Positions 2,637-12,514 are shown, counted from the stretch's first letter. The stretch: 20,000 nt of DNA from an uncultured virus (IMG/VR IMGVR_UViG_3300042890_004141) (IMGVR_UViG_3300042890_004141:115793-135792), one strand, 5' to 3'. The notes: generated by a model not told the origin, from the sequence alone. Numbers and translations are program-made.

Positions 2637-2642
2637 AATATT

Positions 2643-2672
2643 AATATAACATATTTTTTACAAAAAGCCAAA
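2643..2672 (-). promoter_or_regulatory. Putative Bacteroidota-type (-33/-7) promoter TTTGGC-N18-TATATT
   Basis: Identical boxes and spacing at 4039-4068; a variant at 19807-19836. Confidence 0.65.
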
Positions 2673-2674
2673 CA

Positions 2675-4033
2675 TTATTTCCAGCTAATAATATCACCAT
2701 GCAAATTATCCCACTCGCATCCTTTATTAATTAATTTAGATACAGCTAAAATACCTTGAGCACCTGATACTGTAATACCACGAGCTGATAAAGCATCTCC
2801 TACAAAGTGAACATTCTGGTATTCAACTAAAGCTAAATCACTATGATAAACAAGTGGTTCAGGTGAAAGATATTTTACTTCAGGAACATAAACACCCCAA
2901 TCATCTTGTAATGTTGGAAATACTTTTTTCATATCTTCAATAAAGTCTTCAATATAATCCCAATACTCACCCATTCCCTGTCTTACAATACTTAAATTAT
3001 CAATTTGAACAGAACTAACTCTTTCACCTTCTGATGTTGTTGATGGTTTACGAGATGGACTATAATATAAACCTGTTCCAGCAAACTGTAATTCATTTAC
3101 TACTTTACGAGACCAAGCAAATGGATCTTCAATGTTATTAATTTCCATAATAATACCAAAGTTAGTCATGTTGTTTCTATAACGTTCATCTTTTTTAGCA
3201 TGACCATTATATGAATGATTACCGTAAGTGTCTTCTACAGCAACATAAGCGGCATTATTATTAGTACAAAACGAACGTAATGAAACACCTTTATCTTCAA
3301 ACTTACGATACAATTTAAAATCATAACTAATGTCAATTAGTTTCTGAAAGTGTTTTTGTGGTGCTTCAAATCGAACTCCAATTTGTACTGATTTAGGTTC
3401 AGTTTCTAGTTGATATTCGTCTTGAATACTTTGAGCAAAGTCAATACCTGATTTACCTACTCCAAAAATCAATTCATTATATTCAATAGCATATTGTCCT
3501 TCTTTGCCTTTAACAGTTACATAAACTAAATTAGATTCAAAGTCAACTTTAAACACACGTTCATTCCAAACAAACTTAACACCTTTAGACACTAAATAAT
3601 CATACCAATTCTTACCAATTTCATGAAGATAATCTGTACCAACATGCCATACAGGAAATAAACGAAGACCAAAATATGGTTTAATAAAGTCTGGTTCTTC
3701 TACTGGATTTGAACATTGTACTTCTTCAGGTTTAGGGTGAAATCGTTTAAAGTTATTAATAACTTCATCCATTAATTCCATTGCTTTCTTTTCACCAACA
3801 TACTTTGAAAGTTGACCTCCAATTGCTGTATGGTAAGTCAATTTACCATCAGACCAACCTCCAGCACCTAGAAAACCTGTCATTACTTCTTCTGGTTTTC
3901 GGTTGTAAGGATCATTACCCATGTCAATGATAGTAATGTTTTTGCCTGGATAACCATTGTCAACTAATTTAGTAGCGGCATTAACACCTGCTACACCTGC
4001 TCCTACAATTACAATTTTCTTATTCATGTTCAT
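2675..4033 (-). CDS. FAD-dependent oxidoreductase (COG2509-like uncharacterised flavoprotein)
   Basis: Rossmann IVIVGAGVAG, GAGGWSDGKL, RSFC...NGH...TNFG and C-terminal FVGD...GI..SGAQG motifs. The start could be 4033 or 4027. Confidence 0.85.
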   Translation of the reverse strand: MNMNKKIVIVGAGVAGVNAATKLVDNGYPGKNITIIDMGNDPYNRKPEEVMTGFLGAGGWSDGKLTYHTAIGGQLSKYVGEKKAMELMDEVINNFKRFHPKPEEVQCSNPVEEPDFIKPYFGLRLFPVWHVGTDYLHEIGKNWYDYLVSKGVKFVWNERVFKVDFESNLVYVTVKGKEGQYAIEYNELIFGVGKSGIDFAQSIQDEYQLETEPKSVQIGVRFEAPQKHFQKLIDISYDFKLYRKFEDKGVSLRSFCTNNNAAYVAVEDTYGNHSYNGHAKKDERYRNNMTNFGIIMEINNIEDPFAWSRKVVNELQFAGTGLYYSPSRKPSTTSEGERVSSVQIDNLSIVRQGMGEYWDYIEDFIEDMKKVFPTLQDDWGVYVPEVKYLSPEPLVYHSDLALVEYQNVHFVGDALSARGITVSGAQGILAVSKLINKGCEWDNLHGDIISWK

Positions 4034-4038
4034 TTGTT

Positions 4039-4068
4039 AATATATCATACTTTACACTAAAAGCCAAA
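4039..4068 (-). promoter_or_regulatory. Putative Bacteroidota-type (-33/-7) promoter TTTGGC-N18-TATATT
   Basis: Exact match in boxes and spacing to 2643-2672; lies 5 nt upstream of the oxidoreductase ATG at 4033. Confidence 0.65.
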
Positions 4069-4071
4069 TTA

Positions 4072-4145
4072 AAGATGGCACCTTTTTAGGGGCGCCACAG
4101 CTGCCATATATTAGACTCTTGCGAGCGACTGGCTATGAATCAGTC
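4072..4145 (-). ncRNA. Candidate structured RNA (pseudoknot; ribozyme- or riboswitch-like) with alternative terminator hairpin
   Basis: GC-rich island in AT-rich DNA. Pairings on the minus strand: GACUG/CAGUC, GCUC-GCAA-GAGU (GNRA loop), loop CAUAGC with GCUGUG, and AUGGCA/UGCCAU. Alternative fold: UGGCGCC/GGUGCCA followed by UCUUUAAUUU. Confidence 0.5.
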
Positions 4146-4412
4146 TTTATTTATTTTAATTACAAGTTTTCCTTCGCCTTTTATAACTCGGTGCCACTCA
4201 TGTCTTAATATACATATCAAAAGGTTAGGTTCCAAATTCCAAGGTAATTCATTTTCAAACTGGAATTTCCATCCTTTACCTGGTTCAATAATTTCAATTG
4301 TTCTATCTTCATCATCACGATGCCACATTAGCTCTATAGGGTCAATGTTTTCATCAAATTCCCTAATAATGTATTTGTCTGTAACCTCTAAATCTTTATA
4401 CGGCTTTGTCAT
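4140..4412 (-). CDS. Small cupin-like protein
   Basis: Probable start ATG 4412 (MTKPYKD). LMWHRDDEDR and RHEWHRVIKG resemble cupin metal-binding motifs 1 and 2. Confidence 0.65.
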   Translation of the reverse strand: MTKPYKDLEVTDKYIIREFDENIDPIELMWHRDDEDRTIEIIEPGKGWKFQFENELPWNLEPNLLICILRHEWHRVIKGEGKLVIKINKD

Positions 4413-10261: not shown

Positions 10262-12514
10262 TTATTTTATTTTATCTTTAATATAATCTATTACTTCTGA
10301 TGAAGCACTGTCATAATCTTTGTTTGGGAATAAATCAATAAGTTCATCAATTAATTCATTTTCAAACCAATCGGCTTTTTTTAATTCTTCAAATTCTCCA
10401 TCTTTTTTAGAATCAGCTATAGCTTTATTAATAAAAGATTTTACTTTTGAAGTTAAAGGCACTTCATCTTCATCCTCTGAAATTTCATTTAATTTTTGTT
10501 TATATTGAGTTTCTGTAATAATACCAGCTCGTTTTTGAAGTAATAAAATTTCTTTTATATTCTCAGCTACAGTAGTGTCTTTAACAACATGCTGCTTATT
10601 AAAGAAAGTAATTGTGTTACCAACTTGAGTAGCTAATTTTTCGTCACCTAAAGCTCTAGCGGCTTCTAAAGCTGCTTCTAAATTGTCTTGAACGTCTTTT
10701 TTAGTACCTGTTAAATCTGCGTTTGCGTTTTGAGTGACATCAATTTTACCTGGACCTTGAGGTTCTTCCATAGAAAAATCATCAGTTACGTCTACTGTTT
10801 CTTCACCATCTGTTACATCGTCTGTAACTTCTTCAGTATTTGTTTCTTTGTCTTTTTTAGCTTCACTTACATTTTTAAATTTTTTGCTTACTTGTCTGAA
10901 GATATTATCTAAATCATCATCCATAGAACCTTCCCAGTCTCTATCATAAGCATAATAATCATAAACATCATCAGGAGTGTTAAGTTTTTTAATATCATCT
11001 AAAAATTGTTGTGCTTCATCTTCACCACTTATATCTTTTTCATAGTTGTAAACGTATTTTTGAAGAGGAGTTAAACCATTTTCATCATCTTTAACTTCTT
11101 TTAAAGTAGTGCCTTCTTTAGCCCTTTTAGCTTTATTTAAGTCATTTTCATCTTTAATTTTTTTATCTCTCCAAGCATTAAACTCTTCCTGAGTATTAAA
11201 TGTTTTAATTATATCTAAAGATTTTCTAGCTTCATCATTTCCAAATCTTTCTTTTGTATAGCTGTATCTTGCTCTTTGAAAAGGAGTTAAATCATCTGTT
11301 GTAATTAAATTTTTAAATTTTGTTTTTACTTGTTTGAATATATTATCTAGATCAGAACCTTCCCAACCTCTATCATAAGCATAATAATCATAAACATCTT
11401 GTGGTGTTTTTAATTGTTTAATAGCATCTAAAAACTCTTGTTCTTCTTCTTCATCTCTTTCATCACTTACCTTAGATTCAAAATCATAAACATATTGTTG
11501 AAGATCAGTTAAACCATTTTTATCATCTAACATGCCTTCTAATTCGGCTAAGAAATCTGTTTCTGGAGTTGGAGCGTAAGTATCTTCGTTCATATCCTCT
11601 TTAGATGAAGACATTTTAGTGCCATTAGGTATGCTTGTAGGATTATCTTTAAAGCCCATCTTTTGACCAGCTTCATTGCTTTTAAATCCAACTCCATATT
11701 GGTGAGTACCAACTACAGTTTTTCCATCCATAGTAGTCACCATATTAATAGGAGCATTTGCTTCTGCTAAAACCATTTCTCTAATTTTAGCTGTTAATTC
11801 TGATTTTTTCATTTTTGTATTTGTAGTTTTTACTTCATTTAAATTTAACATATCTTTAATATCTGAAATGTAGTCTTCAACTTCTTTAGCAGTAGTAAAT
11901 TCAGTAAATCTGTCATAAGAATTTTCATCCATTTCCTCAATTTCAGCTGTTATTTTATCAGCCATTTCCTTACCATATTTTTGTTCTAGATACTCAGGAG
12001 CATAAAATTGACCCATATATCCTTCTTCTAATTCTTCTTCATCATCATCATATCCATATACCTCTTCATCATTTTGATCAATAAAATCTTCATCTTCTTC
12101 AGCAGCATACCAAGATTGATTAGGATCGTGTTTTGCTTCTTGAGTAAAATCATGAGTTGTGTAATCAAACTCACTAGGTCTAGTAATTAAAGCAGGGAAT
12201 AATATAGGTGTTGAGGTTTCTTCTTTATTAAAAGCTAAATCAATACCTCTACTTCTATCACCTGAACCGCCATTCATTTGGTCTAGTAATTCATAGTAAT
12301 CCATACCACCAAATACACCATATCCATCATAATTTGGTTCATAATAGTACTTGCCTTTATCATCAAACATGTAGACAGGAATCATGTTTTCTTCTTCAGA
12401 TCCAATTTGTTGTCCTGTATCTTGAGTCATCCAAGAGAATTGACCCTCAGTTAATGAGCCAAAGAATGTAGCTTTATTTTTAGCTATATGTTCTTTTAAA
12501 TTAAATTTAGTCAT
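10262..12514 (-). CDS. Large acidic mosaic protein with internal duplication (putative head-internal polyprotein)
   Basis: 750 aa; two copies of a ~72-aa module; internal MKKSELTAKIREMVLAE leader; LQKRAGIITE motif near the C-terminus. Confidence 0.8.
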   Translation of the reverse strand: MTKFNLKEHIAKNKATFFGSLTEGQFSWMTQDTGQQIGSEEENMIPVYMFDDKGKYYYEPNYDGYGVFGGMDYYELLDQMNGGSGDRSRGIDLAFNKEETSTPILFPALITRPSEFDYTTHDFTQEAKHDPNQSWYAAEEDEDFIDQNDEEVYGYDDDEEELEEGYMGQFYAPEYLEQKYGKEMADKITAEIEEMDENSYDRFTEFTTAKEVEDYISDIKDMLNLNEVKTTNTKMKKSELTAKIREMVLAEANAPINMVTTMDGKTVVGTHQYGVGFKSNEAGQKMGFKDNPTSIPNGTKMSSSKEDMNEDTYAPTPETDFLAELEGMLDDKNGLTDLQQYVYDFESKVSDERDEEEEQEFLDAIKQLKTPQDVYDYYAYDRGWEGSDLDNIFKQVKTKFKNLITTDDLTPFQRARYSYTKERFGNDEARKSLDIIKTFNTQEEFNAWRDKKIKDENDLNKAKRAKEGTTLKEVKDDENGLTPLQKYVYNYEKDISGEDEAQQFLDDIKKLNTPDDVYDYYAYDRDWEGSMDDDLDNIFRQVSKKFKNVSEAKKDKETNTEEVTDDVTDGEETVDVTDDFSMEEPQGPGKIDVTQNANADLTGTKKDVQDNLEAALEAARALGDEKLATQVGNTITFFNKQHVVKDTTVAENIKEILLLQKRAGIITETQYKQKLNEISEDEDEVPLTSKVKSFINKAIADSKKDGEFEELKKADWFENELIDELIDLFPNKDYDSASSEVIDYIKDKIK
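10871..11527 (-). repeat. Diverged intragenic direct repeat, two ~220-bp copies (10871-11089 and 11309-11527)
   Basis: Both copies encode DDxNGLTxLQxYVY...FLDxIKxLxTPxDVYDYYAYDRxWEGS..DLDNIFxQVxxKFKN and share the identical DNA core ctatcataagcataataatcataaacatc. Confidence 0.9.

What the first reader, a model, noticed from the sequence alone, without database searches (positions are those of the whole stretch)
4072..4145. Compact pseudoknotted RNA with pistol-like helix order and a competing terminator, overlapping a stop codon
Seen (minus strand): GACUG-AUUCAUAGC-CAGUC GCUC-GCAA-GAGU CUAAUAU AUGGCA GCUGUG GCG CCCCUAAAAAG GU GCCAU CUUU. P1 contains the cupin UGA stop, and its loop CAUAGC can pair with GCUGUG (one G-U). 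AUGGC(A) pairs with (U)GCCAU, and a GNRA hairpin sits in the linker. The G-U pairs work only on the minus strand. Known: pistol ribozymes have the order P1/pseudoknot loop, A-rich linker, P2, AG, pseudoknot strand, GCG, P3, GU, P2'. This element follows that order but has a weak P3 and an extra hairpin. An exclusive fold (UGGCGCC/GGUGCCA plus U-rich tail) would be a terminator ahead of the flavoprotein gene. Inference: a variant self-cleaving RNA or a termination switch between late and metabolic genes.
Basis: partly seen in the sequence, partly recalled or inferred. Interest (0 to 1): 0.75.

Follow-up and report, generated by a model that had tools for sequence, protein, structure and literature searches.

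The report
Phage kissing-loop transcription termination switch
A small, very strongly conserved RNA in front of a phage flavoprotein gene can fold either into two hairpins whose loops pair with each other or into a transcription terminator, so it looks like a new, still ligand-less genetic switch rather than a self-cutting RNA.

Summary
Alone it does not fold better than shuffles, but relatives settle the matter. The element recurs in at least 198 distinct versions on viral contigs. The same FAD-dependent dehydrogenase gene lay downstream in 107 of 118 pattern hits; the other 11 hold too little DNA to tell. Covariation supports four helices. P1 carries an invariant 9-nt loop, AUUCAUAGC. Six base pairs join the two loops, with compensatory double changes at two positions. 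The fourth helix is an intrinsic terminator whose 5' arm reuses loop 2 and the 3' strand of P2. The nucleotides shared by the two folds covary with both partners, so both folds are under selection: a kissing-loop antiterminator against a terminator. The pistol-like P2 (AUGGCA/UGCCAU) pairs in only 39% of cells, no G-U junction is conserved, and no Rfam family matches, pistol included. Pistol membership is therefore rejected. The effector is unknown. One complication is that the flavoprotein gene's own promoter overlaps the terminator, so the switch gates read-through from upstream genes. I read it as an orphan riboswitch-like attenuator, a new variant of a known kind.

The parts
4146..4154 (-). 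5' flank of P1. In relatives this is a conserved A/U-rich stretch (consensus WAAYWUAYA). In this window it is coding sequence of the 95-aa ORF and diverges from that consensus (AUAAAUAAA).
   Evidence: Column frequencies in 121 non-redundant loci; window letters. No covarying partner turned up in the mutual-information scan.
4127..4145 (-). Hairpin P1: GACUG (4145-4141) with CAGUC (4131-4127), closing the 9-nt loop L1 AUUCAUAGC (4140-4132).
   Evidence: 99.6% of cells paired. Pair 15-27 occurs as UA 38, AU 26, CG 18, GC 16, GU 1, UG 1 in 100 sequences. RNAalifold found the helix independently on the MAFFT alignment. L1 is invariant in 40 of 42 distinct sequences of the gene-anchored set; the other two carry the compensated changes.
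4140..4142 (-). UGA stop codon of the upstream 95-aa ORF (4427-4140), lying inside P1.
   Evidence: ORF list. This placement recurs in only 6 of 98 non-redundant loci.
4115..4126 (-). Optional hairpin P1a, GCUC-GCAA-GAGU (GNRA loop), in the linker.
   Evidence: Present in 50 of 198 distinct elements; 35 of those have GNRA loops. Seen in the MFE fold.
4106..4114 (-). A/U-rich linker between P1a and P2.
   Evidence: Across the family the linker is 15-27 nt (median 19) and 50% A.
4091..4105 (-). Hairpin P2: GGC (4105-4103) with GCC (4093-4091), closing the 9-nt loop L2 AGCUGUGGC (4102-4094). Together with the loop-loop helix it forms the antiterminator.
   Evidence: RNAalifold on an alignment that was not fitted to any structure. 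96.0% of cells paired, and all 3 pairs show compensatory changes. 3 of 3 pairs form in 178 of 198 elements and 2 of 3 in the other 20.
4096..4101 (-). L2 strand GCUGUG of the loop-loop (kissing) helix. It pairs with CAUAGC at 4137-4132 in L1, and the helix includes an invariant U.G wobble.
   Evidence: 95.7% of cells paired. Natural double changes: C-G to U-A at pair 1 (9 loci plus L029); G-C to A-U (6 loci) and G-C to U-A (10 loci plus L063, L064, L066) at pair 5. No uncompensated family member was found.
4075..4098 (-). Intrinsic terminator hairpin: GUGGCGCC, loop CCUAAAAA, GGUGCCAU. Its 5' arm reuses the 3' part of L2 and the 3' strand of P2.
   Evidence: Terminator scan and MFE fold. A hairpin using the P2 3' strand is present in 196 of 198 elements. 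The P2 5' strand and the terminator 3' arm carry the same letters.
4066..4074 (-). U-rich tract CUUUAAUUU after the terminator stem.
   Evidence: At least 5 U among the 9 nt after the stem in 157 of 196 elements.
4037..4068 (-). Promoter-like module of the flavoprotein gene: TTTG (4068-4065), a 20-nt spacer, TATATTAA (4044-4037), then ATG 3 nt later.
   Evidence: Promoter scan. An 84% identical repeat stands before the next gene at 2641-2672. The same motif stands directly before ATG at further sites of the 135.8-kb genome. TTTG, 20 nt, TAYMWT is found in 137 of 198 elements, and with 19 nt in 18 more.
2675..4033 (-). Downstream gene: FAD-dependent dehydrogenase of unknown function (452 aa; gene callers elsewhere start it at 4027).
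   Evidence: Pfam Pyr_redox_2 matches the N-terminal Rossmann segment only. Sources name it 'uncharacterized FAD-dependent dehydrogenase'. It lies downstream of the element in 107 of 118 pattern hits.

Best explanation
The element is a cis-acting RNA switch that decides whether transcription coming from the upstream genes stops at an intrinsic terminator or reads on into the flavoprotein gene.

As the RNA is made, hairpin P1 forms first and then the small hairpin P2. Their 9-nt loops pair over six base pairs (a kissing loop). Together P2 and the kissing helix hold 9 of the 11 nucleotides that the terminator needs for the base of its stem. While they hold, the terminator cannot close next to the U tract and the polymerase reads through. 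If the kissing complex is not held, the more stable terminator forms and transcription ends just before the flavoprotein gene's own promoter.

What is shown: the four helices, their mutual exclusion, and selection on both folds.

What is inferred:
- The kissing complex is stabilised by an effector. The many invariant unpaired nucleotides point to a bound small molecule, which would make this an orphan riboswitch of 'ON' logic.
- The regulated output is expression of the flavoprotein gene, or of an operon containing it.
For: 1. Family and gene link. The flavoprotein gene lies downstream in 107 of 118 true hits (98 within 200 nt); the other 11 hold too little DNA to tell. The 135.8-kb genome holds a single copy.

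2. Helices. P1 is 99.6% paired, the kissing helix 95.7% and P2 96.0%. 0 of 500 shuffles reach the observed values, and structures slid by 1-3 columns fall to 27-48% paired. P1 and P2 were also found by RNAalifold on an alignment that was not fitted to any structure.

3. Kissing helix. Three kinds of double change occur (C-G to U-A; G-C to A-U; G-C to U-A). Every family member with a changed loop nucleotide has the matching change.

4. Mutual exclusion under selection.
- nt 71 pairs with C (169) or U (18) in the terminator. In the 8 distinct A71 variants it pairs with U in 8 of 8, and L1 carries U in 8 of 8.
- In the A67 variants nt 67 pairs with U in the terminator in 12 of 12, and L1 carries U.
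- The P2 5' strand carries the same letters as the terminator 3' arm.

5. Terminator. A hairpin is present in 196 of 198 elements, with a U-rich tail in 157 of 196.

6. Energetics. Blocking GCUGUG costs 6.1 to 19.1 kcal/mol, while the loop-loop duplex is worth about -5.9 to -7.4. The terminator is therefore the default, and the other fold needs help or a kinetic head start.

7. Strand. The wobble pairs are G.U on this strand only (10 cells in P1, and the invariant U.G in the kissing helix).

8. Conservation beyond pairing. L1 AUU, the A before GCUGUG and the GGC after it are invariant or nearly so in 42 distinct gene-anchored sequences, although the neighbouring proteins have diverged to about 73% identity.

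9. Separable parts. Three relatives keep the terminator and promoter but lack P1 and P2.
Against: - No effector is known and none can be inferred. The regulated gene has no known function.
- The flavoprotein gene has its own promoter-like module, which lies after or overlaps the terminator. The element is therefore not in the 5' leader of that promoter's transcript, as a textbook riboswitch would be. It can only act on transcripts that start further upstream.
- No conserved promoter was seen upstream of P1.
- In 39 of 196 elements the U tail is weak, so termination may be poor in those.
- No expression data could test any of this. The RNA-library contigs cannot show transcript ends.
- Pairs 2-4 of the kissing helix never vary, so they say nothing for or against pairing.
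Confidence: 0.6

Rival explanations
1. Protein-dependent antitermination. The invariant loops and 5' flank are the binding site of a phage or host protein, or of RNA polymerase itself, in the manner of lambda nut or HK022 put sites (recalled, not tested here). The protein, not a metabolite, sets the balance between kissing complex and terminator.
For: The structural evidence is the same as for the best explanation. The strictly conserved unpaired nucleotides fit a protein site as well as they fit a ligand pocket. The element sits at a boundary between transcription units in a large phage, where timed read-through would be expected.
Against: No candidate RNA-binding protein is linked to the element. 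The upstream genes vary. The one copy per genome and the strict link to a single gene are unusual for a general antitermination system.
Confidence: 0.17
2. Constitutive structure without switching. The two kissing hairpins and the terminator simply form a stable 3' end for the upstream transcript (protection from exonucleases, or a 3'-derived small RNA) and insulate the flavoprotein promoter.
For: The element follows an upstream ORF closely: the stop codon lies 2 to 44 nt before L1 in 87 of 98 loci. It precedes a promoter. The terminator is thermodynamically dominant.
Against: P2 plus the kissing helix and the terminator cannot coexist, because they share nucleotides, yet both are maintained by covariation. 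A generic 3'-end element would not be expected to be single-copy and tied to one downstream gene family in 107 of 118 cases.
Confidence: 0.13
3. Self-cleaving ribozyme, either a pistol variant or a new class. On this reading P1, the loop-loop helix and the third helix stack as in pistol, and the RNA cuts itself.
For: The order P1, six-pair pseudoknot from the P1 loop, third helix is shared with pistol as described in PMC6154101 (passages read). The invariant core, including an invariant U.G pair, would suit a catalytic site. Pistol ribozymes are often found near phage genes.
Against: The pistol P2 is paired in only 39.0% of cells. No conserved G-U junction of fixed length follows the third helix; what follows is a U tract. 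The Rfam scans returned no pistol match in the window or in 20 relatives. Selection on a competing terminator is the mark of a switch, not of a static catalytic fold.
Confidence: 0.05
4. A DNA-level element: an operator, UP element or cruciform upstream of the flavoprotein promoter, with no RNA function.
For: It lies directly upstream of, and overlaps, a promoter-like module.
Against: The stem arms vary while keeping complementarity, whereas the 'spacer' is invariant. That is the opposite of a protein-bound palindrome. The wobble pairs are G.U on one strand only and would be A.C on the other. Two long-range pairings covary.
Confidence: 0.03

Closest known systems
Guanidine-IV (mepA) riboswitch
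   Same: Two hairpins whose loops form a kissing interaction. The kissing interaction prevents completion of an intrinsic terminator stem, so the bound state gives read-through ('ON' logic). This is as described in PMC11611296 (passages read).
   Different: - The Rfam scans returned no guanidine-IV match, and the loop sequences are different.
- Here the second hairpin is not the top of the terminator. It is a separate 3-bp helix whose 3' strand is taken over by the terminator.
- The associated gene is a phage flavoprotein, not an exporter.
- The ligand is unknown.
Pistol self-cleaving ribozyme
   Same: A P1 hairpin whose loop forms a six-pair pseudoknot with a strand lying directly 5' of another helix, and an association with phage genes.
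   Different: - No conserved P2.
- No conserved G-U cleavage junction.
- No Rfam match.
- The pseudoknot strand sits in a closed 9-nt hairpin loop and competes with a terminator.
Pseudoknot riboswitches with transcription terminators (such as preQ1-I and SAM-II; recalled, not tested here beyond the Rfam scan)
   Same: A small aptamer in which a hairpin loop pairs with a downstream strand, an A-rich linker, and an expression platform built on a terminator.
   Different: - The downstream strand lies in a second hairpin loop (a kissing loop, not an H-type knot).
- The linker is 15-27 nt.
- The knot competes directly with the terminator, which gives ON logic.
- The Rfam scans returned none of these families.
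Candidate structured RNAs of viruses catalogued from IMG/VR (PMC10690425)
   Same: That study mined intergenic regions of the same collection and reports 8,495 new candidates, 1,241 of them with predicted Rho-independent terminators (passages read).
   Different: I could not check whether this motif is among them. The alignment and model files could not be read, and the readable tables hold no sequences. The paper's main text holds none of the words 'riboswitch', 'dehydrogenase' or 'FAD'.

Membership tests
Pistol ribozyme | A P1 hairpin whose loop forms a six-base-pair pseudoknot (definition from PMC6154101) | tested here: met
   The loop-loop helix is 95.7% paired and has compensatory changes at two pairs.
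Pistol ribozyme | A P2 helix formed by the strand before the pseudoknot strand and the strand after P3 | tested here: not met
The linker and the 3' tail show no covariation.
Pistol ribozyme | A G-U cleavage junction of conserved length linking P3 and P2 | tested here: not met
   In the alignment a U tract follows the third helix, with no conserved G-U.
Pistol ribozyme | A match to the curated family model | tested here: not met
   The Rfam 15 scans returned no pistol match: the window at gathering score, 301 nt around the element at E up to 10, and 20 homologous loci at E up to 5.
Pistol ribozyme | Self-cleavage | not testable with these tools
   This needs an in vitro cleavage assay.
Guanidine-IV riboswitch | Two hairpins with a loop-loop interaction that blocks a terminator (PMC11611296) | tested here: met
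   This holds for the architecture only: P1, P2, kissing helix and competing terminator.
Guanidine-IV riboswitch | Family sequence consensus / curated model | tested here: not met
   No Rfam match.
Guanidine-IV riboswitch | Association with guanidine export or detoxification genes | tested here: not met
   The downstream gene is an FAD-dependent dehydrogenase in 107 of 118 hits.
Riboswitch (generic) | A conserved structured domain with covariation and conserved unpaired nucleotides | tested here: met
Riboswitch (generic) | An expression platform with mutually exclusive folds | tested here: met
   Shared nucleotides covary with both partners.
Riboswitch (generic) | A constant position upstream of one gene family | tested here: met
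   107 of 118 hits; the other 11 are uninformative. In the gene-anchored set, 61 of 69 flavoprotein loci with enough upstream DNA carry the element.
Riboswitch (generic) | Lies in the 5' leader of the regulated transcript | tested here: inconclusive
   A promoter-like module lies between the terminator and the gene, or overlaps the terminator. No promoter was seen before P1. The element can act only on read-through transcripts.
Riboswitch (generic) | Direct, selective binding of a small molecule | not testable with these tools
   This needs in-line probing or a similar assay.
Intrinsic (Rho-independent) terminator | A G+C-rich hairpin directly followed by a U tract | tested here: met
   In the window: 8 pairs (5 G-C), then CUUUAAUUU. 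In the family: 196 of 198 hairpins, 157 of them with a U-rich tail.

The most novel reading that the evidence does not exclude
This is a new riboswitch class carried by phages. A small molecule, perhaps the substrate or product of the uncharacterised FAD-dependent dehydrogenase, or a signal tied to the DenV-like repair gene that sometimes sits in the same unit, locks a kissing-loop complex of two 9-nt loops. That turns off a terminator, so the phage expresses the enzyme from read-through transcripts only when the molecule is present. Finding the ligand would also give a first functional handle on a very large protein family of unknown function.
Probability: 0.35. Interest if true: 0.85.

Novelty: new variant of a known kind. 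Interest (0 to 1): 0.72.

Why it matters
RNA switches that work by a loop-loop contact against a terminator are rare. The guanidine-IV class is the one example I read about here.

This element is short (about 80 nt) and abundant in aquatic viral contigs. It has natural compensatory mutants for both competing folds, which makes it an unusually clean case for studying co-transcriptional switching.

Its strict link to one phage gene of unknown function (an 'uncharacterized FAD-dependent dehydrogenase' family with thousands of members) means that identifying the effector could reveal what that enzyme does during infection.

The terminator also overlaps the gene's own promoter, a compact way of combining read-through control with independent initiation.

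Tried and rejected
- **Rfam.** No family reached its threshold in the window. At E up to 10 the only match was a Plasmodium RNA at 11.3 bits against a threshold of 70. In 20 homologous loci there were 11 weak matches, all far below threshold.
- **Cultured phages.** A DNA search of the phage collection found nothing. The flavoprotein has only about 25% identical relatives in cultured phages, all Campylobacter phages.
- **Pistol-like P2.** Rejected.
- **A promoter before P1.** The conserved WAAYWUAYA has no TTTG box at the right distance, so a separate small-RNA gene is not supported.
- **Coupling to the upstream stop codon.** Stops cluster at -14 (25 of 98) and inside P1 (6 of 98) but are otherwise scattered, so ribosome-mediated attenuation is not supported as a general rule.
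- **Variant scans for kissing pairs 2, 4 and 3.** The first 120, 119 and 120 rows held only chance hits (parsed).
- **Genome collection.** 120 rows, again cut at the limit. Only 3 are family members (L355, L358, L369, all contigs of metagenome bins) and the rest are chance. This allows no conclusion about hosts or cellular copies.
- **RNA libraries.** 15 runs hold small shares of the stretch. The contigs laid from 4 runs cannot show ends or strands. One 261-nt contig of run X1 bridges 3995-4255 across the element, one of X3 covers 3928-4107, and one of X4 covers 4122-4363. This is no evidence for or against termination.
- **Catalogue paper PMC10690425.** The supplements holding alignments could not be read. 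The readable tables contain none of the four motif strings searched (the L1 and L2 cores in DNA and RNA letters), and the table of genes within 25 bp downstream holds none of the Pfam or flavoprotein terms searched.
- **Earlier findings of this scan.** Nothing by place, sequence or words.
- **Literature searches.** Searches found no description of this motif.

Full report
**What is in the window.** All genes near the finding lie on the minus strand. A 95-aa ORF (4427-4140) ends with UGA at 4142-4140. A 452-aa gene with an N-terminal FAD/NAD Rossmann segment starts at 4033.

The 106 nt between them read, 5' to 3' on the minus strand:
- GACUG-AUUCAUAGC-CAGUC (4145-4127)
- GCUC-GCAA-GAGU (4126-4115)
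- CUAAUAUAU (4114-4106)
- GGC-AGCUGUGGC-GCC (4105-4091)
- CCUAAAAA (4090-4083)
- GGUGCCAU (4082-4075)
- CUUUAAUUU (4074-4066)
- a promoter-like TTTG (4068-4065), 20 nt, TATATTAA (4044-4037), then ATG.

On its own the stretch is not remarkable: the MFE is -27.3 kcal/mol, z = -1.28, and 20 of 200 shuffles fold as well. The plus strand gives z = -0.47. The simple scan does call 4098-4075 a terminator-like site. Rfam has nothing.

**Relatives.** I searched viral contigs with each of the two flanking proteins and kept 80 loci for each. A blastn of the spacer against these 160 loci found 54 distinct homologous copies.

Of the 80 flavoprotein loci, 69 have at least 220 nt of upstream DNA:
- 56 carry the exact core;
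- 5 carry a variant core (L029, L046, L063, L064, L066);
- 3 keep only a terminator and promoter (L057, L062, L076);
- 5 have nothing recognisable.

The flavoprotein gene lies downstream in 107 of them: within 200 nt in 98, after a DenV-like gene in 4, and 373-771 nt away in 5. The remaining 11 hold too little downstream DNA to tell. The upstream gene varies.

The window's own genome is a 135,792-bp virus record with a single copy of the element. Its large terminase is closest to that of Flavobacterium phage vB_FspM_immuto, at 64% identity.

**Helices.** I built a covariance model from a MAFFT alignment of 54 sequences and used it to align 100 diverse members.

- P1 is paired in 99.6% of cells. 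One position occurs as UA 38, AU 26, CG 18, GC 16, GU 1, UG 1.
- The helix between loop 1 (CAUAGC) and GCUGUG is paired in 95.7% of cells. Its outermost pair is lost in the 26 sequences that have U instead of G there.
- RNAalifold, run on the MAFFT alignment that was not fitted to any structure, returned P1 and a helix nobody had proposed: the three nucleotides before A-GCUGUGGC pair with the three after it.
- On the 100-sequence alignment this P2 is 96.0% paired, and all three pairs show compensatory changes: GC 55, CG 29, UA 10, AU 5, UG 1; GC 51, AU 48, GU 1; GC 60, UA 23, AU 5, other 12. 0 of 500 shuffles reach the observed values, and slid structures drop to 27-48% paired.

So the 'pseudoknot strand' sits in the 9-nt loop of a second hairpin. 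The interaction is a kissing loop between two 9-nt loops.

**Test of the kissing helix.** The main pattern fixed both loops, so I scanned for members with a changed loop-1 letter and left the partner free.

- Pair 1 (parsed): 10 of the 117 stretches have a full P1. One of them is a chance hit. The other 9 are family members, and all of them have U in loop 1 and A in loop 2, as does L029.
- Pair 5 (parsed): all 16 stretches with a full P1 are family members. Six have A with U and ten have U with A, as do L063, L064 and L066.
- Among 198 distinct elements both positions form a standard pair in every case, including one G.U.
- Scans for pairs 2, 4 and 3 gave only chance hits in their first 120, 119 and 120 rows (parsed). 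Those three pairs, among them the U.G wobble, appear invariant and give no information either way.

**Two exclusive folds, both selected.** A hairpin that uses the 3' strand of P2 as part of its 5' arm is predicted in 196 of 198 elements, and 157 of these have at least 5 U in the next 9 nt. In most, the arm also runs into loop 2: it starts at the G of GUGGC in 95 and further 5' in 44.

The shared nucleotides follow both partners:
- G71 pairs with C (169) or U (18) in the terminator. In the 8 distinct A71 variants the terminator partner is U in 8 of 8 and loop 1 carries U in 8 of 8.
- In the 12 distinct A67 variants the terminator partner is U in 12 of 12 and loop 1 carries U.

A mutual-information scan puts P1, P2 and terminator pairs at the top. 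It also shows that the P2 5' strand and the terminator 3' arm carry the same letters (GG 47, UU 21 at one position), as expected if they compete for one strand.

Blocking GCUGUG costs 6.1 kcal/mol in the window and up to 19.1 in members with long terminators. The loop-loop duplex is worth about -5.9 to -7.4. The terminator is therefore the ground state. The kissing complex can form first during transcription, but it needs stabilisation to win.

**What does not fit a textbook riboswitch.**
- The motif TTTG, 20 nt, TATATTAA, then ATG a few bases later, recurs before other genes of this genome and before the next gene in the window.
- Across the family the 20-nt spacing is kept in 137 of 198 elements (19 nt in 18 more), even though the TTTG lies inside the terminator loop in most members and after the terminator in the window.
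- From memory, this resembles the -33/-7 promoter type of Bacteroidota, which would agree with the terminase relative.
- The flavoprotein gene therefore has its own promoter, and the switch can only act on transcripts arriving from upstream.
- Upstream of P1 there is a conserved A/U-rich stretch but no promoter-like box at the right distance. It has no covarying partner.
- Upstream ORFs end 2 to 44 nt before loop 1 in 87 of 98 loci, with no single preferred position apart from a TAA at -14 in 25.

**Comparison with known families.**
- Pistol, as described in PMC6154101 (passages read), has P1, P2 and P3, a six-pair pseudoknot between the P1 loop and the P2-P3 junction, and a G-U cleavage junction. 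Only the first and third of these features are found here, so membership is rejected. Self-cleavage itself cannot be excluded without an assay.
- The logic is closest to the guanidine-IV riboswitch, in which a kissing loop hinders completion of the terminator stem and gives read-through (PMC11611296, passages read). Sequence, gene context and the way the second hairpin relates to the terminator all differ, and no Rfam model matches.
- A catalogue of 8,495 candidate structured RNAs from the same viral collection exists (PMC10690425, passages read). I could not read its alignments, so the motif may already carry a catalogue number there.
- Six literature searches found no description of the motif.

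**Verdict.** The 'termination switch' reading is supported and refined to a kissing-loop antiterminator against an intrinsic terminator. The pistol reading is rejected as a family assignment and is unlikely as a mechanism.

The effector and the biological output remain inferred. The gene it precedes is annotated only as an uncharacterized FAD-dependent dehydrogenase. It has no solved relative detectable by sequence.

Noticed in passing
window 4037-4068 and 2641-2672 (minus strand); further sites of the genome listed: A repeated promoter-like module: TTTGG, a 20-nt spacer, TATATTAA, then ATG only 3-8 nt later. It stands before several minus-strand genes, which suggests nearly leaderless transcripts and a Bacteroidota-type promoter (the promoter type is recalled, not tested).
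   Followed up: partly
L192:1594-2067 (+); the same arrangement in L175, L238 and others: In some relatives a gene with a Pyr_excise (pyrimidine dimer DNA glycosylase) domain (Pfam E = 1.6e-06) sits between the RNA element and the flavoprotein gene. This hints at a functional link between the two genes.
   Followed up: partly
relatives, a few bases after the -7 box, for example L017:1399-1526 and L023:2374-2502: A short palindrome of the form TTAAC-NN-GTTAA follows the TATATT box in many relatives (outputs). It may be an operator. In the window it is only partly present (TTAACAAATGAA).
   Followed up: no
L057, L062, L076 (about 90 nt upstream of the flavoprotein start): Three relatives have a plain hairpin plus U tract plus promoter before the flavoprotein gene, but no P1 or P2. 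The sensing part and the terminator-promoter part are therefore separable.
   Followed up: partly
window 10867-11528: Direct repeats of 85-111 nt at 64-86% identity, spaced 216-438 nt apart, lie inside the 750-aa ORF at 10262-12514 (families D1, D2, D3 and D8). The protein therefore has an internally repeated domain. It has no family match.
   Followed up: no
Even so, it has at least 449 relatives on viral contigs and usually lies 0.25-1.4 kb upstream of the element.
   Followed up: partly
Campylobacter phage records, for example NC_015464.1:3926-5092: The only cultured-phage relatives of the flavoprotein, at about 25% identity, are the 'NAD(FAD)-utilizing dehydrogenase' genes of 38 Campylobacter phage records. 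I did not check whether an RNA element precedes them.
   Followed up: no
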